Source: a virus. From it: a DNA stretch of 63,968 nt. A program made the position numbers and the translations under genes. The notes under the pieces were generated by a model. It searched no databases and had not been told where the DNA came from. It saw only the letters and a program-made list of their open reading frames with translations. The stretch lies in IMG/VR virus record IMGVR_UViG_3300043607_000016, positions 1 through 63,968 of that record. One strand, written 5' to 3'. Below are positions 1 through 63,968 of this stretch, piece by piece. Each line of letters opens with the position of its first letter. Positions within the stretch are counted from its first letter, which is position 1.

Positions 1-127
1 GGGCAACTGGCGACGAGCGGGGGGCCACCGCTGCTGACCATCCCGAAGCATGGGCCGCTTGCTCCTTCGTTTAGAAGGTGCTTCCACGCCGAGCCAGGGC
101 ATAAGCTCGTGACATTCGACTACAGGG
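1..127. repeat. Terminal overlap: nt 1-127 are identical to nt 63842-63968 (circular-contig closure)
   Basis: Base-by-base comparison of the first and last 127 nt. The repeat lies inside the polymerase ORF, which reads through it in frame. Confidence 0.95.
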
Positions 128-38607: not shown

Positions 38608-38803
38608 TGATTACTTCTCCTTTTGTTATTGCCCCCGCATAGCTTTTAGTCCGGTTTCAAAAGAGCAAACGTGCAGACCATAGCCTATTCTAATTTGCGA
38701 GTGCTTTTCAAATCTGTATGTTGTTCTATCTTGGCCTAGTCTGCACGAGAGGAGAGTACGCTTTTACCCCGGAAGATTGCAAGTACCTAGACGGGTTAGG
38801 GAA

Positions 38804-41855: not shown

Positions 41856-41885
41856 TTGACAATTGATGCAAGTGAGGCGTAGGAT
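41856..41885 (+). promoter_or_regulatory. Sigma70-like promoter (TTGACA-N18-TAGGAT)
   Basis: TTGACA at 41856-41861 and TAGGAT at 41880-41885. Lies upstream of AGGAGG and ATG 41929. Confidence 0.55.
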
Positions 41886-42237: not shown

Positions 42238-42555
42238 ACTTATAACTATACCTTTGAGATATAAGGCTAGTTTATAGGTGCCAGGATATGAGGACACTAA
42301 ACCAATGCGCATCCTGACTTGGACTAAAAGGTCGAAACGGGCGCGCGCCTAGCGTCGCTGCTTAGTTTTTTGGACGCATGTGGCGAGTCTTACGGCTATG
42401 GTCTGAGGACTGGGCAGAGTGGCGAGAATGCGGACTTGTTCCCAGAGCAAGTGGCGGAGTGGGCATATCAGAACAGCGACGAACTAAGTATGCTCGCCTG
42501 CGAATTGGAAGAAAACAAAGGGCTGATTGAAGAGTAAAGGGAGGGTGACAGAGCG

Positions 42556-43295: not shown

Positions 43296-43404
43296 CTATC
43301 TCACGGAGTAGATCGTGTGAGTAGATCGTGTGAGGGGGATGCTCCGGTTTAGGTCCAATGACTTAGGCCAGAGCAGGTTTTAGAGGGTGTTACTTTTTGT
43401 GGTA

Positions 43405-45137: not shown

Positions 45138-45463
45138 GATGGCATGTATGTTACGTTCAACCCAGACGACCCTTTGAAGTTTGTCAAGTATACAATTCCC
45201 ATAGCTATGAACTGCGCAGGTGGAAGGCAGGTAATGTAACGAAATGATACAAAACGCCGCAAACGGGCTGTATTCGATTTTCGCTTCAGTTCTGAGAATC
45301 AGGCAAAATAGAAAATGTCGATTTTGCTGGGGTTTTTAGTTTTGGGCTAGGCTTGGTGACACTAGGATACGCTTCTGCGGCTGTTCGTGCAGGGGACGCA
45401 GAGATAGACGGCAAGGCGCTGTATCAGGATTGAAGACGTAAATCTAAGATTGGGGGTGGGGAG

Positions 45464-47773: not shown

Positions 47774-47839
47774 ACAGGGTTAAATCCTACAATCTATTAA
47801 GTTTTATCCCTATAAAGAATACTACATAGGGGGTACATA

Positions 47840-47876
47840 AAACGTCCTATATAATAGATATAATACTAGGACGTTT
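47840..47876. repeat. 10-bp perfect inverted repeat AAACGTCCTA / TAGGACGTTT with a 17-nt AT loop holding two TATAAT hexamers
   Basis: Arms at 47840-47849 and 47867-47876. Flanked by direct repeats CTACATAGGG (47822-47831 and 47898-47907). Confidence 0.6.
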
Positions 47877-47883
47877 CCTTCCT

Positions 47884-47914
47884 CCCTGTGTCGATATCTA
47901 CATAGGGCAGTTTT
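47884..47914 (+). terminator. Candidate intrinsic terminator
   Basis: CCCTGTGT-N8-ACATAGGG (one G-U pair), followed by CAGTTTTGG. Confidence 0.35.
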
Positions 47915-47979
47915 GGGGGTGGTCGGGGGGAGTTTTGGGCGCTGAGGGGAACGATTTGGAACAGTACCCACTCAGGGGA

Positions 47980-48008
47980 TTGACTCTTATTTCAGCCGGG
48001 TGTAGGAT
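47980..48008 (+). promoter_or_regulatory. Sigma70-like promoter (TTGACT-N17-TAGGAT)
   Basis: TTGACT at 47980-47985 and TAGGAT at 48003-48008. It shares GTAGGATGC with the 41880 promoter and lies upstream of AGGAGG and ATG 48056. Confidence 0.55.
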
Positions 48009-54762: not shown

Positions 54763-54828
54763 TCAAAACCACCCCCAACCCTTGAGTATGGCCGCAGGTC
54801 ATGAAGATCAATACGGGGGTGGTTTTGA
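54763..54828 (+). repeat. 14-bp inverted repeat TCAAAACCACCCCC / GGGGGTGGTTTTGA with a 38-nt loop (terminator-like or RNA structure)
   Basis: Arms at 54763-54776 and 54815-54828, in the 138-nt gap between operons. Confidence 0.45.
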
Positions 54829-54888: not shown

Positions 54889-55359
54889 ATGACAACAAAA
54901 ACAACATCGAAGCGCGCCTCGAAGAGACTAACCATAGAAGAACTTGCTAATCATAAGCATCGCAAGACTTTGAATAAGGACCTCCTGCTTCGTGAGGCGA
55001 AGTCTCTTCGCAGGCTGAGACATGAAGAGCATTATCGACAATCAACGTTTTTTACTAAGACGGTTTGTGGGACGGCCTGCTGCATAGCAGGAAGGATTTT
55101 GTTACATCAGGGAATGCGGCCAGCGGAGTTGCTCGTGCTTATTAAGGACGGCCAGAGTCTTTCTGATATGGTAGGAGGGTTAGTTGGATTGACAGGTGAT
55201 GAAGCAGACGTTTTATTTTCAGGCTCTCCTGGTACGGACTGGCCTGATCCATTCGGGTATAGGTGGAGGAATATTGGTGAGACGGGCGAACGGCCATCGA
55301 AAATAGCAGCAGACTTCCTAGAAGCCATCGCTCAAGGGAAGATTGGCAGAAATGCATAA
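54889..55359 (+). CDS. Hypothetical protein (156 aa)
   Basis: AAAGAGAA lies upstream of the ATG. VCGTACCIAG motif. Confidence 0.55.
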   Translation: MTTKTTSKRASKRLTIEELANHKHRKTLNKDLLLREAKSLRRLRHEEHYRQSTFFTKTVCGTACCIAGRILLHQGMRPAELLVLIKDGQSLSDMVGGLVGLTGDEADVLFSGSPGTDWPDPFGYRWRNIGETGERPSKIAADFLEAIAQGKIGRNA

Positions 55360-55387
55360 CTTCACTTTTCATGAAAAGGAGACCCAG

Positions 55388-56038
55388 ATGAGTGCAACAG
55401 AACCAGCAGCAAACAACCAGGGCGAGCAGGAATTCCTAAACCTCGCCGACCTGCCCAGTGTAGACATCGGGGAGGATCAAGTCACAGTCAACCCGGACGC
55501 GGATGCCTTCGCCGCGCCTGCTCCGGTTAAGGACGGGGATCATCAGGCGAAATTGATGTATGGCACCGATGACCCCGAGAAGCGATGGCAGCGCAGAAAG
55601 ACTAAAGACGGCAGTGGGGTTTATTACGCGACTAAAATCCAGGCGCGGATCATCGAACCTGGCAACGAGGATGATAACAAGGTCGTGTTCGATGGGTTTG
55701 TCAGCACGATGATGAGGAACGGGACGAGCAGGGTGATCGGGGTGCTGGCGGCGCTTGGTTTTCCAATCGAAAGCATCCATAGCCATCTTGATCAGGTTAG
55801 GGCGTTGGATAACCTGCTAATTGGCGAGCCTTCCTGTGGCATAGAGACTGAATGGGAGGCGCAGTACAACACCGGAGAGAAGAACGACGCGGGCAAGGAC
55901 AGCTATAAGCGGCTGAAGAAGGGGATGAAGAACTTTCCGCAGCTCCCCACCGGAGAGTTTAGTCATGTGTTGGAAAGCCCGGTGGATGGGAGCGACTGCT
56001 CAGCGCAGGCGAGGGTGGTGAGGTACTTTAGTCTGTAG
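55388..56038 (+). CDS. Hypothetical acidic protein (216 aa), a possible ssDNA-binding protein by position only
   Basis: AAGGAG lies 7 nt upstream of ATG 55388. The gene sits between the ATPase and helicase genes. Confidence 0.3.
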   Translation: MSATEPAANNQGEQEFLNLADLPSVDIGEDQVTVNPDADAFAAPAPVKDGDHQAKLMYGTDDPEKRWQRRKTKDGSGVYYATKIQARIIEPGNEDDNKVVFDGFVSTMMRNGTSRVIGVLAALGFPIESIHSHLDQVRALDNLLIGEPSCGIETEWEAQYNTGEKNDAGKDSYKRLKKGMKNFPQLPTGEFSHVLESPVDGSDCSAQARVVRYFSL

Positions 56039-56490
56039 TTTTTTGGGCATGGCGCAGGGCCGAGAGTTGACGTATCGACTGGCTAGTTGTGGTCAACACC
56101 GTTAGAGGAATCCAGTCGTGATCCTTGCGCCAGTAGTTCTTTCAAAGCATGACACCGAGTCGAGGGGAGTCTGCCGAATAGGAGCAAAATTAGGCAGGCG
56201 GTAAGCCTTCGGACTTGCGGGTACCAGCTACCTCGCTCAGTAATGATCGACTCGGTGTCAGTAGTTCTTTCAAAAGCATGGCGGGCAGGCAAGCGCGCAA
56301 ACCTACGCGGGTGGTTCGGTAGAAGTCCGATTGAACTAGGTGCATCGAGCAAGTGCCACCCTCCCCGCCAGTAGTTCTTTTGGGGGTTCTGAGACAACCG
56401 GGGATAGCGGTGACACAACCATGGATGGCTGCGAAAGCGTAAGACCGCAAGGTCGTCACCGTCCCCGGTCCTCAGACAGTTTTGGAGGCC
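56035..56490 (+). other. Array of four tandem long hairpins (81-109 nt) joined by a conserved linker, (C)AGTAGTTCTTTCAAAGCATG; candidate structured RNA array or origin
   Basis: Closing stems: 56051-59/56123-31, 56151-63/56247-59, 56280-85/56364-69, and nested stems 56389-93/56471-75, 56398-404/56462-68, 56409-14/56455-60. Linkers at 56035, 56132, 56260 and 56370. UUCG, GAAA and GCAA loops. No SD-preceded ORF on the plus strand. Confidence 0.6.
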
Positions 56491-56554
56491 AATGATCACA
56501 TGGTTACGGATGCTGCACGTTTGCACAAACAGGTGGTGGGGAAGGAGATCAGCG

Positions 56555-56767
56555 ATGAGTAATAAACTTAACATTGTTGTTGCCCGCGCAAGGTATCTGA
56601 TAGCTGAATATGAAGCGCATAGCGTCACCGATGGCGACGTGTTTGACCTTTTCAAAGCAATTATTGAGGCTGATTATGCAACGCCTGATGTAAAAGCAGC
56701 AATCGTAGCTTGGAACCGCCGCGCCACGTGGGAGCACGAACCAACTACATGCACGGATTGTGAGTAG
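56555..56767 (+). CDS. Hypothetical protein (70 aa)
   Basis: GGAAGGAG lies upstream of ATG 56555. Confidence 0.5.
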   Translation: MSNKLNIVVARARYLIAEYEAHSVTDGDVFDLFKAIIEADYATPDVKAAIVAWNRRATWEHEPTTCTDCE

Positions 56768-56782
56768 GGGAGGTACTTTCAA

Positions 56783-56914
56783 ATGCAGGCAAACTACATC
56801 TTCACCGACAGCGATTGGCCGCTCTGGAAGCAGATCCTCTATCGCCTGTTCGGACACCCGAGGCCGAGATTGAGCTTGAAGGCGCAGATCGAGAGGGCGG
56901 GGTGGTATGACTGA
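56783..56914 (+). CDS. Small hypothetical protein (43 aa)
   Basis: Not in the ORF track. GGGGAGG lies upstream. TGATG overlap with the next gene. Confidence 0.4.
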   Translation: MQANYIFTDSDWPLWKQILYRLFGHPRPRLSLKAQIERAGWYD

Positions 56915-57219: not shown

Positions 57220-57229
57220 GATAAAATTG

Positions 57230-59728
57230 ATGAATGAGATCAGCGCTGAAGAAATGGAAATGTACGGCGACGAGCAGGTTCCGGTAGTCGAGGAGCCTGA
57301 CCCCCTCGCCCCAATCGAGCAAGCCACCTTCGCCTTCGTTACCGGAAATTCTGGTAGTGGAAAGTCCACCGCCATCCGTCGCAAGGTAGACGCCGAGGTA
57401 ACCGAAGGCAAGCGTGATTGGGGGGTTTTATGCAGCACAACCGGCGTGTCAGCGGTGAGTCTGGGCGTTACCACGATCAACAATTTATTCGCCTACTTCG
57501 ATACGGATTCTCTACGCGCGATCTATGCGGCAGGCCACAACAACCTCAAAGACAGACTCAAGGCAATCGCACAGAAGTCCTCTCGTCTGGTGCTGGATGA
57601 GGTCTCTCTATTCAGCGCGGACCAGCTTGACATCTTCTACATGGCGATCTCGGAGTTGAATGAATTCGACTATATGAAAGGCAGACCATTCGGCATCGTG
57701 CTCGTTGGTGACTTCTGCTTGGGTTTTGGTACCCCAATAATGATGGCGGATGGGACTATCAAACCTGTTGAGCAAATCAGTGTAGGGGATTTGGTAATGG
57801 GGCCGGATTCCAAGTCTAGGAAGGTGCTGCGTACTACCTTCGGTGTTGATCAGATGTTCATGGTCCATCAAACAAATGGAGATGACTATACAGTCAACTC
57901 GAAGCACAGCCTCGCACTGAAACGTAGCATTGATGGAAGTAGAGAACAGAAGTGTATCTCATCCAGAAAAGGTAGAAAGGCGGGAGAGCCTGTCAAAGAC
58001 TCTTGGATACGCTATTCTGAGATGCCTGACAATTTCGCAATGGGGGTTCAGGAATTTGCAAACAAACCCCGGCATTTTAAGGAGTGCTTCGTTGGATACA
58101 AGGCTGGGTTAATAGAGTTCCAGCCGCGTAAGACCACTATTGATCCCTATTTCCTTGGTCTTTGGTTAGGTGATGGAGATTCGGATTGTGCGCGAATCAC
58201 AACTCCAGATCAGGAGATCATAGAATACTGCTATCAATATGCACAGCAACTCTCTTTGATGGTTACCATTGGTACATGGGCTCGGACACGAGCAGTTAGA
58301 TTAGGATTGTCAGGGGGTAAGCATACAGGTAATAAGGCGAATCCATTATGGAGCAGATTTAGGGAATACAATCTCCCAAAAAATAAGCACATACCTGACG
58401 ATTATCTGACCAATTCAGAAGAAAATCGCCTTAATCTATTGGCAGGTCTGCTTGACTCTGACGGAAGTTGGACCGGAAATAGATACACAATTACGTCCAT
58501 CAGAGAGCATCTTGCCTTGCAAATAAAACAACTGGCTGATCAGTTAGGGTTTAGAACGGGAATCAGAAGATTCACCAGTGTCTACTATAAGGATAAGCCA
58601 GAGAGCAAGTATGCATGGACTATCACCATTGGCGGGGATACATGGAGGATTCCGTGTAAAGTGGAAAGAAAGAAGTCTATCCCTAGAGACCTGGTAAGAA
58701 GCCGTCTTACGTCTGTCTTGTCTATAAGAGACGTGGGTATAGGTAACTACGTAGGATTTGAAACAGATGGAGATCACCTATTTCTTCTTGGGGATGGGAC
58801 AGTGGCTCATAACTGCCAGCTCCCTCCGATAAAAGATAAGTTCGCATTCGAAGCAAAGTGCTGGGGGGAGTTTGAGAAAAACACGCTGCGACTGACAAAG
58901 GTGTGGCGGCAGGATGATCTTGATTTCGTCCACGCGCTTAACCTCATCCGCTGCGGCGATGGACCGGCCGGCGCAAGAGCACTTGAGGACGCTGGGGTGC
59001 AGTTTGTCAGCAGCCTTGATATGAAGTTTGAAGGCACTACGATTGTAGGAAAAAACGATCAGGTCAATCGGATCAACGCGGTGAGATACCAGCAGGTGCA
59101 GGGCAAAGAGTTCGAACTATCCAACTACCGCTGGGGCAGTCAGCGTTCAGAGTGGCGCGCGGAAAAGGGCATCATCCCCTTTCAGTTGAAACTCAAACCC
59201 GGCGCGTTGGTGATGGTGCTCGCCAACCACCCGGAGTTCGAGTATGCGAACGGCGACCTTGGCGAAGTAATCGGGATGGACGGAAGCTCTGGCGTGCTGG
59301 TGAAATTAAAACGGAATGATTCCATCGTAAGCGTGACCAGAGTAACCAGGCATGTAAACACCGCCTCAAACGATGATCATGGCCTCGCGCACTACAACTG
59401 TCTATGTGAGGACCGCGAGGGATGGGAGAAGCTACCGAGGGCGAAATGGGGCGAGGAGAGTTTTAATTGCAGGGATCAAAGCGTGGTGACTGGGGCGGTG
59501 GATTACTGGCCGTTGCGCCTTGCATATGCATCGACTGTTCATAAAGTGCAAAGTTTGAGCTTGGATAGTATTCAGGTGGACGCGAGGGATGCTTTTGTTG
59601 GCAATGCGGGCATGTGCTACGTCTCGTTGAGTCGTGCGCGTACTGCTCAAGGTCTCCGTATCATCGGTTCCAAAAATCTGCTTGCAAAACGGACAAATGT
59701 AGATTTTCGTGTAAGGAGATTTATATGA
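57230..59728 (+). CDS. PIF1/RecD/Dda-like SF1B helicase interrupted by an intein
   Basis: GNSGSGKST (motif I); LVLDEVSLFS (motif II); VLVGDF / CQLPPI (motif III, split by the intein); ASTVHKVQSLSLD; YVSLSRAR. Confidence 0.8.
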   Translation: MNEISAEEMEMYGDEQVPVVEEPDPLAPIEQATFAFVTGNSGSGKSTAIRRKVDAEVTEGKRDWGVLCSTTGVSAVSLGVTTINNLFAYFDTDSLRAIYAAGHNNLKDRLKAIAQKSSRLVLDEVSLFSADQLDIFYMAISELNEFDYMKGRPFGIVLVGDFCLGFGTPIMMADGTIKPVEQISVGDLVMGPDSKSRKVLRTTFGVDQMFMVHQTNGDDYTVNSKHSLALKRSIDGSREQKCISSRKGRKAGEPVKDSWIRYSEMPDNFAMGVQEFANKPRHFKECFVGYKAGLIEFQPRKTTIDPYFLGLWLGDGDSDCARITTPDQEIIEYCYQYAQQLSLMVTIGTWARTRAVRLGLSGGKHTGNKANPLWSRFREYNLPKNKHIPDDYLTNSEENRLNLLAGLLDSDGSWTGNRYTITSIREHLALQIKQLADQLGFRTGIRRFTSVYYKDKPESKYAWTITIGGDTWRIPCKVERKKSIPRDLVRSRLTSVLSIRDVGIGNYVGFETDGDHLFLLGDGTVAHNCQLPPIKDKFAFEAKCWGEFEKNTLRLTKVWRQDDLDFVHALNLIRCGDGPAGARALEDAGVQFVSSLDMKFEGTTIVGKNDQVNRINAVRYQQVQGKEFELSNYRWGSQRSEWRAEKGIIPFQLKLKPGALVMVLANHPEFEYANGDLGEVIGMDGSSGVLVKLKRNDSIVSVTRVTRHVNTASNDDHGLAHYNCLCEDREGWEKLPRAKWGEESFNCRDQSVVTGAVDYWPLRLAYASTVHKVQSLSLDSIQVDARDAFVGNAGMCYVSLSRARTAQGLRIIGSKNLLAKRTNVDFRVRRFI
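57716..58813 (+). mobile_element. Intein (366 codons) with a LAGLIDADG homing-endonuclease domain, in helicase motif III
   Basis: Cys1 TGC at 57716-57718 (CLGFGTPIMMADGT). Two dodecapeptide motifs, FLGLWLGDGDS and LLAGLLDSDGS. Ends ...LLGDGTVAHN (58813), with +1 Cys at 58814. Confidence 0.85.
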
Positions 59729-60322
59729 ACGACTTTAGGATTAGGGATGATATTACTGAGATTTTGATCAAACACAAGGGCAAGCATTTGCCTCATTGAT
59801 TCCGACAACCTAGAAATGGTTAGAGGTTTGGGTGTTACCTTCCACGCTCGTTGGTCGGCATCGGCGAATACGTTCTATGCTACGTCTCATCAAGTTGTTG
59901 GTGGAGTTAGAAAGACTATCCATATGCATCGGGTTGTTGCGGGGCTTGGTAGTAATTGGAAAGAAATTGTCCCAGACCATAAGGATCATAATGGTCTCAA
60001 TAATACCAGGGCAAATCTTAGAGTACTTTCCAAAGCAATCAATCACCGCAACATGAAATCAGCAAAAGCAGAAAGTACGCATGGGTATTTAGGAGTTTGT
60101 TTTGATAGAAGTAGAAATGTATTTATGGTGGGGATCAGTGGCCGATTGAATGGCAGAAGGTCATTTCTCTCACTAGGACGTTTTGAAAAGGCTGAGGATG
60201 CTGGGCTGGTGGCAAAGTACGCAAGAGAATTCGTAATGCAACGAGCCATAGCTGATGGTGTTATTGAGTTGACTCCCGAGTTTCGAGAAGAAGTTAGGGA
60301 GCATGTGAAAGAGTTCATCTAG
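59725..60322 (+). pseudogene. HNH plus AP2-domain homing endonuclease, with its N-terminus displaced by a frameshift (an intact ORF starts at ATG 59816)
   Basis: ATG 59725 is ATGA-coupled to the helicase stop and reads MNDFRIRDDITEILIKHKGKHLPH* (TGA 59797-59799). The +1 frame is open from 59768 and reads ASICLIDSDNLEMVRGLG...HMHRVV...PDHKDHNGLNNTRANLRV...YLGVCFD (HNH_3 and AP2 signatures). Confidence 0.6.
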
Positions 60323-62037: not shown

Positions 62038-63968
62038 GTCTTGCGAGTTGTGTCCCTTGTTTACTTTGGGTCATGGCTTCTCGGAAGTCGAAGGTCGAGG
62101 TGCGTCAGGCGTGATGGTTGTTGGTGAAGCACTCGGCGATAAAGAAGTGCGTGATGGGCTGCCCTTTCGTCCTGACGCGCCGGCCGGGTCAGTCTTACAA
62201 ACAGCAATCAAACGGTCAGGACTGGACCGCGAAGAACTCAGCATCACAAACGTCGTTCGATGCGGACCCCCAGGCAATAAGCTGGAAAACATGCCGTGGG
62301 AGAATGGTGCCGTAGCTCATTGTCAGAGGCACATGGATCCAGTAGTGGAGCGTGCGCGGCCGAAGGTGATCTACGCGCTTGGGAACTCAGCGATCAAAGC
62401 TCTTACGGGTCTATCGGGCAAGGCAAGAGGCAGCACCAGCCTTCGAGGTTATGTGCTAAGGGGAACTCGCTATCCTGACATCCCCATTGTGGCGGGATTG
62501 CATCCGTCTTATATCGCCCGAGGCGCTAGAGAAAATATTGAGGTGCTGAGGCATGACTTGCTAAAGGCGGTGGGGATTGCGAAGGGTCGGAAGGACTATC
62601 TCTTCATTGAAACTTGGGAGGATGCAATCTTGGCTGGGTTGGACTATCGACGGCCTGGAAGTGGACCTAGGGGTGGCCTGACTACCAAGGAACTCGAAGA
62701 GTTCCATGCATATATAAGTAATCATGTACATGATCATGCTTACCCGGAACACCCAGAAGCGGAATTAGTATTAGCGGTTGATATCGAAACCGAGATGATT
62801 AAATCGCGGAACCGGAGCGAGATGGTTGCGAATTTGTCGGATAAAATCCGGTCGATTCAGTTCAGTATATTTCCAAACTCAGGATACTTTCTGCCGTGGG
62901 TAGAACCTTACATCGAATGGGCTAAGAAGCTACTTGCACTGCCGGTCAGGAAGGCGGGTTGGAATCTTAATGCGTTTGATATACCTATCTTGCTCGCTGC
63001 CGGTTGCGAGGTGAATGGTGAGATATTCGACGGCATGACAGGATTCCATCACATGCAGCCTGATCTTCTCAAGGACTTGCAATTCGCTGGCAGCTTTTTG
63101 GGTGCGAGGTATCCATGGGATCATTTGAAGGATAGCCAGCCGGAGCTTTACGGAATCGCCGACGCGGACAACACAGTACGAGCTGCGTTACGCCTGCCAG
63201 AGATGATGAAAAAGCTAGGCATATGGGATAGCTACGTTGTACAGGTGCAGGGGCTCAGGCCGACATTGGATTTGATTACGAAGCGTGGGTTACCTGTGGA
63301 TGAAGAAAGGCTTGAGGTGCTGGGGGTGGAGCTGGACGCGCGGATAGCGGAGGTGGACGGGAAGTGTCAGGAGAGGTGGCCGGAGCAGCTTAGGAAGTAT
63401 CATCCGAGCGAGGGGTATAAGGTCCTGCCGAAACCTCTAAAACTTGCTCTCACAGGGGTAGTCATAACAGATGAGATGAATGGTCTGACTGTGAATGGGG
63501 AACTATACCTGCAACGGCAATTCAATGGTGGTGATGTAAGATGGTGCAAACCCCTCCCCTTCCTTCCTAACTCCCCACAGCAGATTCAAAGCTACATGAA
63601 ATTCCGCGGTCACCCCATCCCCAAATCCATCGATGGCAAAGACACCACCGGAACCAAAGAACTCGACCGCCTCGCAAAGAGAACCAAAGACCCCCTCTAC
63701 TCACTCATCGGCCAATACCGCAAGGTGAAGAAAATGAAATCCACCTACGTCGGCGACAGTGAGCCAGGGAGCAAGAGCAGGGGGTTCAGGCCAGAACCGG
63801 ATGGTAGGGTACGCGCGTATTACACCTACAACCCCGCGACCGGGCAACTGGCGACGAGCGGGGGGCCACCGCTGCTGACCATCCCGAAGCATGGGCCGCT
63901 TGCTCCTTCGTTTAGAAGGTGCTTCCACGCCGAGCCAGGGCATAAGCTCGTGACATTCGACTACAGGG
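62018..63968 (+). CDS. Family-A DNA polymerase, N-terminal part: UDG-family-4-like domain, 3'-5' exonuclease and the start of the polymerase domain (the ORF continues at nt 1)
   Basis: ATG 62018 follows AAAGGAGAAG. VVGEALGDKE...NVVRCGPPGN...GLHPSYI (UDG family 4-like). LAVDIETE, GWNLNAFDIPIL and IADADNT (Exo I-III). No stop before the window end, and the phase matches nt 1. Confidence 0.85.
   Translation, partial: MTLSKPKSCELCPLFTLGHGFSEVEGRGASGVMVVGEALGDKEVRDGLPFRPDAPAGSVLQTAIKRSGLDREELSITNVVRCGPPGNKLENMPWENGAVAHCQRHMDPVVERARPKVIYALGNSAIKALTGLSGKARGSTSLRGYVLRGTRYPDIPIVAGLHPSYIARGARENIEVLRHDLLKAVGIAKGRKDYLFIETWEDAILAGLDYRRPGSGPRGGLTTKELEEFHAYISNHVHDHAYPEHPEAELVLAVDIETEMIKSRNRSEMVANLSDKIRSIQFSIFPNSGYFLPWVEPYIEWAKKLLALPVRKAGWNLNAFDIPILLAAGCEVNGEIFDGMTGFHHMQPDLLKDLQFAGSFLGARYPWDHLKDSQPELYGIADADNTVRAALRLPEMMKKLGIWDSYVVQVQGLRPTLDLITKRGLPVDEERLEVLGVELDARIAEVDGKCQERWPEQLRKYHPSEGYKVLPKPLKLALTGVVITDEMNGLTVNGELYLQRQFNGGDVRWCKPLPFLPNSPQQIQSYMKFRGHPIPKSIDGKDTTGTKELDRLAKRTKDPLYSLIGQYRKVKKMKSTYVGDSEPGSKSRGFRPEPDGRVRAYYTYNPATGQLATSGGPPLLTIPKHGPLAPSFRRCFHAEPGHKLVTFDYR
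63842..63968. repeat. Second copy of the 127-nt terminal overlap (identical to nt 1-127)
   Basis: Identical by direct comparison. Confidence 0.95.

What the first reader, a model, noticed from the sequence alone, without database searches (positions are those of the whole stretch)
56035..56490. Four tandem long hairpins joined by a conserved 20-nt linker, between the putative SSB gene and the helicase operon
This 450-nt stretch has no SD-preceded plus-strand ORF. Its only long ORF is an antisense, low-complexity one. It consists of four consecutive units, each with the form CATG, 5' arm, complex interior, 3' arm, then (C)AGTAGTTCTTT(C)AAAG. The linker occurs at 56132-56151 and 56260-56280 almost identically, with degenerate copies at 56035 (GTAGTTTTTTGGGCATG), 56370 (AGTAGTTCTTTTGGGGG) and 56476 (ACAGTTTTGG). 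The sequences between linkers are unrelated to each other, but each closes with a strong stem: GGCGCAGGG/CCTTGCGCC, GACACCGAGTCGA/TCGACTCGGTGTC, GGCGGG/CCCGCC, and the nested set CTGAG, CCGGGGA, GGTGAC. The interiors contain UUCG, GAAA and GCAA loops. Unit 1 also has a pseudoknot-type conflict, where GTTGAC 56066/GTCAAC 56092 encloses CGACTGG 56076, whose partner CCAGTCG lies at 56112. A conserved short repeat separating unique, highly structured inserts does not match a CRISPR array, a tRNA cluster or simple terminators. Three explanations are possible. It could be a processed array of structured small RNAs. It could be a replication origin or single-strand initiation signal, which is notable because I recognise no primase gene. 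Or it could be a multi-terminator insulator. A similar hairpin followed by AGTTTTGG occurs at 47884-47914.
Basis: seen in the sequence. Interest (0 to 1): 0.75.

Follow-up and report, generated by a model that had tools for sequence, protein, structure and literature searches.

The report
Stack of four hairpin punctuation cassettes
In a novel soil-type phage, the gap between a recombination gene pair and the helicase operon holds four unrelated, strongly self-paired ~100-nt elements joined by one repeated U-rich linker; this looks most like stacked RNA "punctuation" (leaky terminator/stabiliser) cassettes, not a known RNA gene family or a replication origin, but its function cannot be proven from this one sequence.

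Summary
CAGTAGTTCTTT occurs exactly three times (56131, 56259, 56369). No other 12-mer is tripled in this circular 63.8-kb genome, apart from one that owes a copy to the contig's end overlap. Every segment between linkers is closed by its own end-to-end stem: 10, 14 and 11 (one mismatch) bp, and a nested ~20-bp stem. Rfam, ARAGORN, BLAST and pattern scans of viral, metagenome and genome collections find no relative. The downstream 67-aa gene is an ORFan. Covariation therefore cannot be tested.

Context decides the reading. The slot varies between relatives, and three of them carry a single hairpin plus U-run after the same gene. The linker belongs to a genome-wide family of hairpin tails, (C)AGTT(Y)TTT(GGG), followed by an SD and ATG. 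One 80%-related contig has the same tail upstream of a conserved 43-aa gene.

Best reading (about 0.4): stacked cis-acting RNA cassettes acting as leaky terminators, stabilisers and processing sites, whose shared linker also serves as a recombination patch, as in T4-type PeSL cassettes.

Not excluded:
- a processed array of small RNAs;
- boxA-like Nus recruitment (GTTCTTTCAAA matches 10 of 11 consensus positions, but that is not above chance);
- a DNA-level origin or single-strand initiation role (weak).

Moderately interesting and unresolved.

The parts
55343..56038 (+). Upstream 231-aa gene. It is the conserved partner of the Sak4-like gene and possibly a DUF669/SSB-like protein. Its TAG stop lies inside linker copy T0.
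   Evidence: Its homologue directly follows the Sak4-like gene in L004-L006 and lies one small gene downstream of it in L002. The AF2 model has pLDDT 69. Fold matches in BFVD are borderline, and there is no PDB match.
56033..56049 (+). Linker copy T0, CTGTAGTTTTTTGGGCA. It contains the stop codon, a U6 run and GGG, and sits just before the ATG.
56050..56132 (+). Unit 1, 83 nt. A 10-bp closing stem (TGGCGCAGGG/CCTTGCGCCA, one G.U pair) encloses two interleaved helices of 6 and 7 bp, which could form a pseudoknot.
56133..56149 (+). Linker T1, GTAGTTCTTTCAAAGCA. It is U-rich and contains the boxA-like core GTTCTTTCAAA.
56150..56260 (+). Unit 2, 111 nt. A perfect 14-bp closing stem encloses about three inner hairpins, one of them capped by UUCG.
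   Evidence: z -3.95; DNA z -5.5
56261..56278 (+). Linker T2, GTAGTTCTTTCAAAAGCA.
56279..56370 (+). Unit 3, 92 nt. The closing stem is 11 bp with one C.C mismatch. It shares its terminal TGGCG...CGCCA with unit 1.
   Evidence: (z -0.6)
56371..56388 (+). Linker T3, GTAGTTCTTTTGGGGGTT.
56389..56475 (+). Unit 4, 87 nt. A roughly 20-bp interrupted stem (5+7+8 bp) is topped by a four-way junction with three mini-hairpins, whose loops are UGGA, GAAA and GCAA.
   Evidence: (z -4.69)
56476..56491 (+). Linker T4, ACAGTTTTGGAGGCCA. It consists of the tail followed by a GGAGG Shine-Dalgarno just before the ATG at 56492.
   Evidence: L028 has a homologous arrangement.
56564..56767 (+). Downstream ORFan gene (67-70 aa). 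It has no homologue among 5.8 billion proteins.
56783..56914 (+). 43-aa ORF conserved in the closest relative (79% identity). In that relative it directly follows a linker-like tail.
57227..59728 (+). Dda/PIF1-like helicase interrupted by a 366-aa LAGLIDADG intein (57716-58813). It is the first large gene that depends on read-through of the array.
47884..47947 (+). A hairpin followed by two CAGTTTTGGG-type tails. It lies just upstream of a sigma-70-like promoter at 47980. The tails belong to the same family as the linkers.
38655..38746 (-). A long-range hairpin (14-bp stem, 47-nt interior) followed 3 nt later by GCTCTTTTGAAA. It is the only other intergenic, sense-strand GYTCTTT in the genome.

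Best explanation
The region is a stack of four cis-acting RNA punctuation cassettes, transcribed as part of the plus-strand replication and recombination operon.

What each cassette contains: a large, self-closed hairpin followed by a shared single-stranded junction. The junction has a U-rich tail (GUAGUUYUUU), a degenerate ribosome-binding spacer and an AUG.

Inferred mechanism:
- As RNA polymerase leaves each GC-rich closing stem and enters the U-rich tail, a fraction of transcripts terminates. These would be weak terminators, probably dependent on host factors.
- Transcripts that read through can be cut in the exposed U-rich linker.
- The hairpins left at the new 3' and 5' ends protect the flanking messages.
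- The net effect is a stepwise drop and uncoupling of expression between the Sak4-like and SSB-like genes upstream and the helicase operon downstream.

Origin of the stack: the repeated linker is also the homology patch through which such cassettes and small ORFan genes are gained and lost in this hypervariable slot. That would explain why unrelated hairpins share one junction.

What is shown: the anatomy, its uniqueness, the variability of the slot, and the kinship of the tails.

What is inferred: termination, cleavage and recombination.
For: (1) Position. The array starts at the stop codon of a conserved gene, and all flanking genes are on the plus strand.

(2) Relatives. Three relatives at about 70% protein identity carry one hairpin plus a U-run at exactly this position. 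L003's hairpin is a branched 76-nt structure with a 10-bp closing stem.

(3) Tail family. The linker belongs to a family of tails, (C)AGTT(Y)TTT(T)GGG, that follow hairpins at other plus-strand gene junctions (42364, 45338, 47909, 47931, 56037, 56373, 56478). One of these lies immediately before a sigma-70-like promoter, that is, at the end of a transcription unit.

(4) Junction format. Tail, then SD, then ATG recurs at T4 (GGAGG, ATG at 56492). It also recurs in the contig whose helicase is 80% identical (L028: GCCAGCAGTTTTTCAGGAGCAAATTCTATG).

(5) Variable slot. L001 carries different small genes here, the window carries an ORFan, and L028 lacks it. This resembles the T4-type hyperplastic regions in which stem-loop-containing intergenic cassettes act as terminators/attenuators and as recombination linkers (PMC2839356).

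(6) Read-through. No promoter-like site lies in or after the array, so downstream genes need read-through. That fits leaky elements better than strong ones.

(7) No sign of an RNA gene. There is no Rfam family, no tRNA, and no complementarity of 12 nt or more to the rest of the genome.
Against: - The hairpins are 83-111 nt and branched, with inner tetraloop-capped helices. That is far more elaborate than termination or stabilisation needs. The terminator scan calls none of them.
- The U-tract is interrupted (GUAGUUCUUUC). By E. coli rules it would be a poor terminator (my inference from the sequence).
- The non-U part of the linker (CAAAGCATG) is also identical in T1 and T2, which a terminator tail does not require.
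- The genome also has a canonical terminator with U5+U4 at 45300-45350, so the host does use ordinary ones.
- There is no direct evidence of transcription, termination or cleavage.
- Folding is equally good for either strand and with DNA parameters.
Confidence: 0.4

Rival explanations
1. A processed array of four distinct structured small RNAs that act in trans. The long transcript is cut in the conserved single-stranded linker, for example by RNase E, or by RNase III in the ~20-bp stem of unit 4. This releases ~90-125-nt RNAs that act as decoys, sponges or regulators.
For: - Each unit is a compact multi-helix fold closed by its own ends, as stable RNAs are.
- Unit 4 has a four-way junction with GAAA and GCAA loops on the plus strand, and unit 2 has a C(UUCG)G loop.
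- Unrelated units joined by a conserved linker resemble the logic of processed arrays.
- The units are far more complex than terminators need to be.
Against: - No Rfam family matches even at E up to 10, and there is no tRNA or tmRNA.
- No homologue was found in any collection searched, so there is no covariation.
- No complementarity of 12 nt or more to the phage genome.
- Units 1 and 3 are not significantly more stable than shuffles.
- Relatives manage with one plain hairpin in this slot.
- The minus strand and DNA parameters fold just as well.
Confidence: 0.2
2. The linkers are boxA-like Nus-factor sites and each module resembles an rRNA operon in miniature. Each linker would recruit NusB/NusE to the elongating polymerase. 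That would protect the 0.5-kb untranslated stretch from Rho termination. It would also hold the 5' arm close until the 3' arm emerges, helping the long-range stem to close. Alternatively, the sites could titrate Nus factors.
For: - GTTCTTTCAAA matches 10 of 11 positions of the published gamma-proteobacterial consensus GYTCTTTAANA (PMC5725501).
- It also matches 10 of 11 positions of a functionally tested Legionella boxA, GTTCTTTAAAA (PMC7862264).
- The core GTTCTTT is present in three linkers.
- The order hairpin, boxA, then 5' arm of a long-range stem matches rRNA leaders and spacers (from my own knowledge of rrn operons).
- The only other sense-strand intergenic GYTCTTT (38666, minus strand) also follows a long-range hairpin by 3 nt.
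Against: - Matches to the consensus with one mismatch or fewer occur 8 times in the window against 6.0 expected. GYTCTTTMA occurs 3 times against 2.2 expected. The resemblance alone is therefore not significant.
- Position 8 (A in the consensus) is C here.
- T0 and T4 lack the critical C4.
- boxA is itself U-rich, so a terminator tail can mimic it.
- The host and its own boxA are unknown. The nearest known phages infect Acidobacteriota.
Confidence: 0.12
3. A DNA-level element: either a replication origin or single-strand initiation signal, or a set of protein-binding direct repeats brought together when the palindromes extrude as cruciforms.
For: - There are three to five direct repeats of a 17-21-bp motif.
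- The palindromes fold well as single-stranded DNA (z -5.5 and -4.4 for units 2 and 4) and equally well on both strands.
- GCGAAAGC in unit 4 is also a very stable DNA mini-hairpin (from my own knowledge).
- The location is inside the replication and recombination module.
- No primase was recognised in the proteins scanned (not exhaustive).
Against: - The array is 56% GC and has no AT-rich unwinding element.
- Repeat spacing is 110-128 bp, not in helical register.
- No initiator gene was identified next to it.
- Relatives lack the array although they share the flanking genes.
- A more origin-like AT-rich palindromic region lies at about 47780-47960.
- G.U pairs in closing stems (unit 1) suit RNA on the plus strand.
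Confidence: 0.08
4. Non-adaptive build-up: small palindromic (MITE-like, TG...CA-ended) insertions, or repeated illegitimate duplication at one junction, tolerated because the slot is non-essential.
For: - Every unit begins TG and ends CA. Unit 2 has perfect 14-bp terminal inverted repeats and is flanked by nearly identical 20-nt copies of the linker.
- The slot is hypervariable, and the region carries other selfish elements: an intein and an HNH endonuclease.
Against: - No second copy of any unit exists anywhere in the genome or in any collection searched.
- The flanking 'duplication' of about 20 nt is longer than the target-site duplications I know for transposase-driven elements (from my own knowledge).
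- No transposase or integrase was noticed nearby.
Confidence: 0.1

Closest known systems
PeSL (promoter-early stem-loop) regulatory cassettes of T4-type phages (Arbiol et al. 2010, PMC2839356)
   Same: - A conserved intergenic motif that runs from an upstream stop codon to the next SD/ATG and contains a stem-loop acting as a terminator or attenuator.
- It is concentrated in hyperplastic regions next to ORFans.
- The repeated motif serves as a homology patch for gain and loss of cassettes.
- Here too, the linker spans stop codon to ATG, sits next to an ORFan, and lies in a slot that differs between relatives.
   Different: - PeSLs contain a strong sigma-70 promoter. None is detectable here.
- PeSL stem-loops are short and conserved (GGGG...CCCC). 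Here the hairpins are 83-111 nt, branched and unrelated to one another.
- PeSLs flank ORFs. Here four are stacked with nothing between them.
Tandem intrinsic (Rho-independent) terminators or attenuators at operon junctions
   Same: GC-rich stems followed by a U-rich tract, located right after a gene end. Relatives have a single such element in the same place.
   Different: - The loops are 60-85 nt and structured, instead of 3-8 nt.
- The U-tract is interrupted.
- The pattern scan does not call any of them.
- The tail includes a conserved part that is not U-rich.
rRNA-operon and lambda nut boxA/boxB antitermination modules
   Same: A hairpin followed by a GYUCUUU-type element on a long untranslated transcript. 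The element sits just upstream of the 5' strand of a long-range stem. The match to published boxA sequences is 10 of 11 positions.
   Different: - Position 8 differs from the consensus.
- The match is not enriched over chance.
- The element is repeated three times in 240 nt.
- Nus binding is untested and the host is unknown.
REP/BIME extragenic palindromes
   Same: Tandem extragenic palindromes between co-transcribed genes, separated by short conserved linkers, with a GTAG tetranucleotide next to each hairpin. Known roles include mRNA stabilisation (from my own knowledge).
   Different: - REP units are about 35-40 nt, simple, alike in sequence, and dispersed in many copies.
- Here each unit is unique, and the motif occurs at one locus only.
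- GTAG lies 3' of the hairpin, not immediately 5'.
T7 early-region RNase III processing hairpins
   Same: Intercistronic hairpins in a phage polycistronic RNA that are cut to leave protective 3' hairpins (from my own knowledge). Unit 4 offers about 20 bp of stacked helix.
   Different: Units 1-3 have only 10-14-bp closing stems. There is no sequence resemblance, and cleavage is untested.
CRISPR arrays
   Same: A short direct repeat alternates with unique sequences.
   Different: - The repeat is 16-21 nt and is not itself palindromic.
- The 'spacers' are 83-111 nt and self-complementary.
- There are only three exact copies, and no cas genes were noticed.

Membership tests
Intrinsic terminator | Compact GC-rich stem-loop (loop about 3-8 nt) | tested here: not met
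   The closing stems are GC-rich but enclose 63-83 structured nucleotides. The consensus scan finds no terminator-like site in 56030-56500.
Intrinsic terminator | Uninterrupted U-tract directly after the stem | tested here: inconclusive
   The tails are GUAGUUCUUUC (6 U in 11, interrupted), GUAGUUCUUUUGG and ACAGUUUUGG. By E. coli rules these are weak. The host's rules are unknown.
Intrinsic terminator | Located at a gene or operon end, with the same function in relatives | tested here: met
   The array starts at the stop codon of the 231-aa gene. L001, L002 and L003 each have a hairpin plus U5-U7 at the same place.
Intrinsic terminator | Transcripts actually end there | not testable with these tools
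   No transcriptome data are available.
boxA / Nus-factor antitermination site | Match to the boxA consensus GYTCTTTAANA | tested here: inconclusive
   T1 and T2 match 10 of 11 positions (position 8 is C). T3 matches only the first 7. T0 and T4 lack C4.
boxA / Nus-factor antitermination site | Occurrence above chance | tested here: not met
   Matches with one mismatch or fewer: 8 observed against 6.0 +/- 2.3 expected in shuffles.
boxA / Nus-factor antitermination site | Binding of NusB/NusE and protection from Rho | not testable with these tools
   This needs biochemistry or genetics in the unknown host.
Any Rfam RNA family, tRNA or tmRNA | Covariance-model or ARAGORN match | tested here: not met
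   No gathering-score hit in the whole window. Only noise (E >= 0.5) in the region at relaxed thresholds. No tRNA or tmRNA.
Structured RNA gene (generic) | Stems kept by compensatory changes in relatives | not testable with these tools
   No homologous sequence exists in phages, plasmids, IMG/VR, JGI metagenomes or GTDB genomes. The closest relative, L028, is cut about 40 nt upstream of the informative part.
PeSL-type mobile regulatory cassette | Conserved stop-to-ATG intergenic motif with a stem-loop, in a hyperplastic ORFan-rich slot | tested here: met
PeSL-type mobile regulatory cassette | Embedded strong sigma-70 promoter | tested here: not met
   No promoter-like site lies in or next to the array, although the scan does find the phage's TTGACN-17/18-TAGGAT promoters elsewhere.
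CRISPR array | Repeats of about 23-55 nt, non-self-complementary spacers of about 20-70 nt, cas genes or a leader | tested here: not met
   The repeat is 16-21 nt and the inserts are 83-111 nt and palindromic. No cas domain appeared among the proteins scanned (not exhaustive).
REP/BIME or MITE-type repeat | Many similar copies dispersed in the genome | tested here: not met
   No segment of 12 nt or more from the array recurs elsewhere in the genome on either strand. Only the linker repeats, and only locally.
Replication origin (iteron type) or ssi signal | Iterons in helical register plus an AT-rich unwinding element next to an initiator gene | tested here: not met
   Spacing is 128 and 110 bp. 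The array is 56% GC. No initiator was identified nearby.
Replication origin (iteron type) or ssi signal | Initiation or priming activity | not testable with these tools
   This needs marker-frequency analysis, 2D gels or priming assays.

The most novel reading that the evidence does not exclude
The array is a phage-encoded miniature 'rRNA-operon-like' transcription unit. It would hold four different structured RNAs, each preceded by a boxA-like Nus-factor site. That site would both shield the long untranslated transcript from Rho and chaperone closure of each long-range stem. The released RNAs would then act in trans as decoys or sponges for host factors or defences. No arrangement of repeated boxA-hairpin modules encoding unrelated RNAs is known to me from any phage.
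Probability: 0.1. Interest if true: 0.8.

Novelty: new variant of a known kind. Interest (0 to 1): 0.42.

Why it matters
If the favoured reading holds, this is a clear natural example of stacked, sequence-diverse RNA "insulator" cassettes sharing one junction. Such an arrangement would set the expression ratio between two phage gene modules. It would also mark a recombination hot spot where ORFans are swapped. Both points are useful for understanding how little-known soil phage lineages evolve in modules, and the cassettes could serve as parts for synthetic operon design.

If the less likely readings hold (boxA-guided RNA modules or trans-acting RNAs), it would be a new type of phage non-coding locus.

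Either way, the locus is small, sharply bounded and easy to test with reporters.

Tried and rejected
- Known RNA families. Rfam at gathering score on the whole window, and at E up to 10 on 1 kb and on 446 nt, gave only noise. ARAGORN found no tRNA or tmRNA.
- DNA similarity. BLAST of the region against phages and plasmids gave no match.
- Exact linker in IMG/VR. The 21-mer and the linker-pair pattern both gave 0 hits.
- Linker-pair pattern in JGI metagenomes. The 14 hits were all unrelated ordinary tandem repeats. The window's own contig was not among them, so that collection apparently does not hold it.
- Linker in 185,579 reference genomes. The 5 hits were single, chance-level matches inside unrelated sequence.
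- Protein-anchored searches for relatives.
  - The 231-aa gene has 5 relatives, none with the array.
  - The Sak4-like gene, the 231-aa gene and the 43-aa ORF gave nothing in IMG/VR.
  - The 67-aa ORF is an ORFan.
  - The helicase extein has 770 relatives. The closest (80% identity) sits on a 2.1-kb contig that stops about 40 nt into the informative region. More distant 54-64-kb relatives have no array.
- Antisense targets. No identity or complementarity of 12 nt or more between the array and the rest of the genome.
- Strand or molecule choice by energy. Plus RNA, minus RNA and DNA parameters fold equally well, so this is uninformative.
- Promoter inside the linker. None found.
- Integron attC boxes, tRNA-like CCA ends, HDV-like, hammerhead and CsrA-sponge motifs. 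I considered these by eye and dropped them, because there were no matching signatures or model hits.
- Tunturiibacter phage Tunturi_1, the nearest named relative, which is similar in structural genes only. It has a 164-nt two-hairpin gap after its SSB gene but no linker array.
- Fold search of the 231-aa protein. No PDB match, and only borderline viral matches.
Full report
**What is there**

The window is a complete, circularly assembled phage genome: bases 1-127 repeat at 63842-63968. Structural genes lie on the minus strand. Early, replication and recombination genes lie on the plus strand from about 41.9 kb onward.

The finding lies in a 525-nt non-coding gap (56039-56563, 55% GC).
- Upstream is a 231-aa gene (55343-56038).
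- Downstream are small plus-strand genes, followed by a Dda/PIF1-like helicase that carries a 366-aa LAGLIDADG intein.
- The only long ORF in the gap is antisense and has no family match.

**Checking the observation**

The linker. The 12-mer CAGTAGTTCTTT occurs exactly three times (56131, 56259, 56369) and nowhere else. Apart from a 12-mer tripled by the contig's terminal overlap, it is the only 12-mer present three times in the genome. Linkers 1 and 2 are identical over CAGTAGTTCTTTCAAA and continue (A)GCATG. Weaker copies flank the array:
- T0 (56033-56049, CTGTAGTTTTTTGGGCA), whose TAG is the stop codon of the upstream gene;
- T3 (GTAGTTCTTTTGGGGGTT);
- T4 (ACAGTTTTGGAGGCCA, followed by ATG).

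The stems. Each segment between linkers is closed by pairing of its own two ends, always starting TG and ending CA: 10 bp (unit 1), 14 bp perfect (unit 2), 11 bp with one mismatch (unit 3), and a nested 5+7+8-bp stem (unit 4). Among 400,000 random segments of 80-115 nt from this genome, terminal stems of at least 10 bp occur at 1.1e-4 and of at least 14 bp at 2.5e-6. The arrangement is therefore not chance.

Caveats.
- By folding energy alone, only units 2 and 4 stand out (z -3.95 and -4.69). Unit 1 is borderline and unit 3 is not significant.
- In a genome-wide scan the array windows rank among the most stable, but they are not unique.
- The plus strand, the minus strand and DNA parameters all fold equally well. 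Energy therefore cannot say which molecule matters.
- Plus-strand GAAA and GCAA loops in unit 4 and a G.U pair in the stem of unit 1 lean towards plus-strand RNA. However, GCGAAAGC is also a very stable DNA hairpin (from my own knowledge), and the UUCG hairpin has a C.A mismatch that would be a G.U pair on the other strand.

**Is it a known thing?**

No. Every search came back empty.
- Rfam 15 gives nothing at gathering score and only noise at E up to 10.
- ARAGORN finds no tRNA or tmRNA.
- BLAST against 50,697 phage records and 72,556 plasmids finds nothing.
- Exact linker patterns give 0 hits in IMG/VR.
- In JGI metagenomes they give 14 hits, all ordinary tandem repeats.
- In 185,579 reference genomes they give 5 chance-level single hits.

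The phage itself is distant from anything named. The nearest are Tunturiibacter (Acidobacteriota, soil) phages, at about 28-30% identity in structural proteins only.

**What relatives show**

- The 231-aa protein has five relatives among 5.8 billion proteins. Its homologue directly follows the Sak4-like gene in L004-L006. In L002 one small (80-aa) gene lies between them. It gives borderline fold matches to DUF669 and SSB-annotated phage proteins and no PDB match. The label 'putative SSB' is therefore plausible but unproven.
- In the three relatives at about 70% identity, this gene is followed by one hairpin and a U-run, not by an array. L001 has a 9-bp stem plus U7. L002 has a roughly 19-bp hairpin plus U5. 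L003 has a branched 76-nt structure closed by a 10-bp stem plus UUUUUAGUUUAGG.
- Between that point and the helicase, the gene content differs in every genome. L001 has a tiny hydrophobic ORF, a 56-aa ORF and a 201-aa gene. The window has a 67-aa ORFan with no homologue at all and a 43-aa ORF.
- The closest relative found (helicase 80% identical, L028) keeps the 43-aa ORF at 79% identity but not the ORFan. In L028 the 43-aa gene is preceded by ...CATGCCAGCAGTTTTTCAGGAGCAAATTCTATG. That is a linker-like tail (GCCAGYAGTTYTTT) followed by an SD and ATG. The contig ends about 40 nt further upstream, so its hairpin cannot be seen.
- More distant 54-64-kb relatives have no array.

**The linker is one of a family of hairpin tails**

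Elsewhere on the plus strand, hairpins at gene junctions are followed by (C)AGTTTT(T)GGG:
- at 42364;
- at 45338, after a canonical A-tract/stem/U-tract terminator;
- at 47909 and 47931, immediately upstream of a sigma-70-like promoter TTGACT-17-TAGGAT at 47980, which resembles the early promoter at 41856;
- at T0, T3 and T4 of the array.

The common format is hairpin, U-rich tail, G-rich or SD element, ATG. T1 and T2 are this same junction with one U changed to C and the G-run replaced by CAAAG.

**Favoured explanation (confidence about 0.4)**

The array is a stack of four cis-acting RNA punctuation cassettes in a hypervariable slot.

Shown:
- the anatomy;
- the position at a gene end;
- single hairpin-plus-U-run elements at the same place in relatives;
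- kinship of the linker with other hairpin tails;
- absence of any promoter in or after the array, so the helicase operon must be read through it;
- variability of the slot.

Inferred:
- Each closing stem plus U-rich tail terminates a fraction of transcripts.
- The exposed AU-rich linker is a natural endonuclease site.
- The hairpins protect the ends that result.
- Together these lower and uncouple expression of the helicase operon relative to the recombination genes.
- The shared linker is the homology patch through which cassettes and ORFans are exchanged.

The closest described precedent is the PeSL cassettes of T4-type phages. These are conserved stop-to-ATG intergenic motifs with a terminator or attenuator stem-loop, concentrated next to ORFans, that mediate modular shuffling (PMC2839356).

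The differences are real. There is no promoter here, the hairpins are unusually large, branched and mutually unrelated, and four are stacked with nothing between them.

The main weakness of this reading is that such elaborate inner structure is unnecessary for termination or stabilisation. By E. coli rules, the interrupted U-tracts would also make poor terminators.

**Rival readings**

(a) A processed array of trans-acting small RNAs (about 0.2).
- The compact multi-helix folds and tetraloops fit.
- There is no family match, no homologue, no covariation and no target complementarity.

(b) boxA-like Nus sites (about 0.12).
- GTTCTTTCAAA matches 10 of 11 positions of the published consensus GYTCTTTAANA and of a functional Legionella boxA, GTTCTTTAAAA.
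- The order hairpin, boxA, then 5' arm of a long-range stem recalls rRNA operons.
- The only other sense-strand intergenic GYTCTTT (38666, minus strand) also follows a long-range hairpin by 3 nt.
- However, matches with one mismatch or fewer are no more frequent than in shuffles (8 against 6.0), boxA is itself U-rich, and the host is unknown.

(c) Origin or single-strand initiation signal (about 0.08).
- Direct repeats and good DNA folding fit.
- Against it: 56% GC, no AT-rich element, spacing of 110-128 bp, no adjacent initiator, absence from relatives, and a better candidate region at about 47.8 kb.

(d) Neutral accretion of palindromic insertions (about 0.1).
- TG...CA ends and the perfect inverted repeats of unit 2, flanked by near-identical linkers, fit.
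- Against it: no unit has a second copy anywhere.

**Verdict**

The feature is real, sharply defined and without a match in any library or collection searched.

Its context argues for an unusual variant of phage intergenic punctuation and recombination cassettes rather than a new class of RNA gene or an origin. Because only one sequence exists, the stems cannot be tested for covariation, and the function remains an inference.

Interest is moderate (0.42). The most novel reading not excluded, boxA-guided modules producing trans-acting RNAs, has a probability of about 0.1 and would be of high interest if true.

Noticed in passing
window 1-127 and 63842-63968: The two ends of the contig are identical over 127 nt. 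The window is therefore a complete circular or terminally redundant phage genome of about 63,841 bp. The family A DNA polymerase gene probably runs across the junction.
   Followed up: partly
window 57716-58813 (inside the helicase gene 57227-59728): A 366-aa intein with a LAGLIDADG homing-endonuclease domain is inserted in helicase motif III (GDF|C...HN|CQLPP). Relatives at 80% and 63% identity lack it.
   Followed up: partly
window 54763-54828: Another perfect 14-bp long-range hairpin (TCAAAACCACCCCC/GGGGGTGGTTTTGA, 38-nt interior containing a small GCA-loop hairpin). It lies in the gap between two plus-strand genes and has no U-rich tail.
   Followed up: no
window 38655-38746, minus strand: A long-range hairpin (14-bp stem, A-rich 47-nt interior) followed 3 nt later by the boxA-like GCTCTTTTGAAA. 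It sits in an intergenic gap of the minus-strand operon, upstream of the packaging genes.
   Followed up: partly
window 47780-47960: An AT-rich stretch with several inverted repeats, among the most structured windows on both strands. It is followed by two CAGTTTTGGG tails and a sigma-70-like promoter at 47980. It is a better candidate than the array for an origin or a major regulatory node.
   Followed up: no
window 41856-41885 and 47980-48008: Two similar sigma-70-type promoters (TTGACA-18-TAGGAT and TTGACT-17-TAGGAT, both followed by G). The first lies at the divergence point between the minus-strand and plus-strand gene blocks.
   Followed up: no
window 43308-43333: A tandem duplication of the 13-mer GTAGATCGTGTGA lies in a short intergenic gap. 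It may be a regulator-binding site.
   Followed up: no
L001 868-921: In a relative, the slot equivalent to the array holds an SD-preceded 17-codon ORF. It encodes a very hydrophobic peptide (MEIIIVILIAAGVLVSD) and is followed by structured RNA and a U7 terminator, which recalls a type I toxin or a small membrane peptide.
   Followed up: no
window 56783-56914: A 43-aa ORF (MQANYIFTDSDWPLWKQILYRLFGHPRPRLSLKAQIERAGWYD) is 79% identical in the closest relative, L028, so it is a real and conserved small gene. The neighbouring 67-aa gene is an ORFan.
   Followed up: partly
window 59816-60322: A free-standing HNH/AP2-domain endonuclease gene lies just downstream of the intein-containing helicase. It is a second selfish element in the same module.
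   Followed up: no
whole window compared with PP887698.1: The nearest named phages are Tunturiibacter (Acidobacteriota) phages Tunturi_1 and Tunturi_2, which have a similar genome size (63.2 kb). Similarity is limited to terminase, portal, capsid and tail proteins at about 28-30% identity. This suggests a soil phage of an undescribed lineage whose host is unknown.
   Followed up: partly
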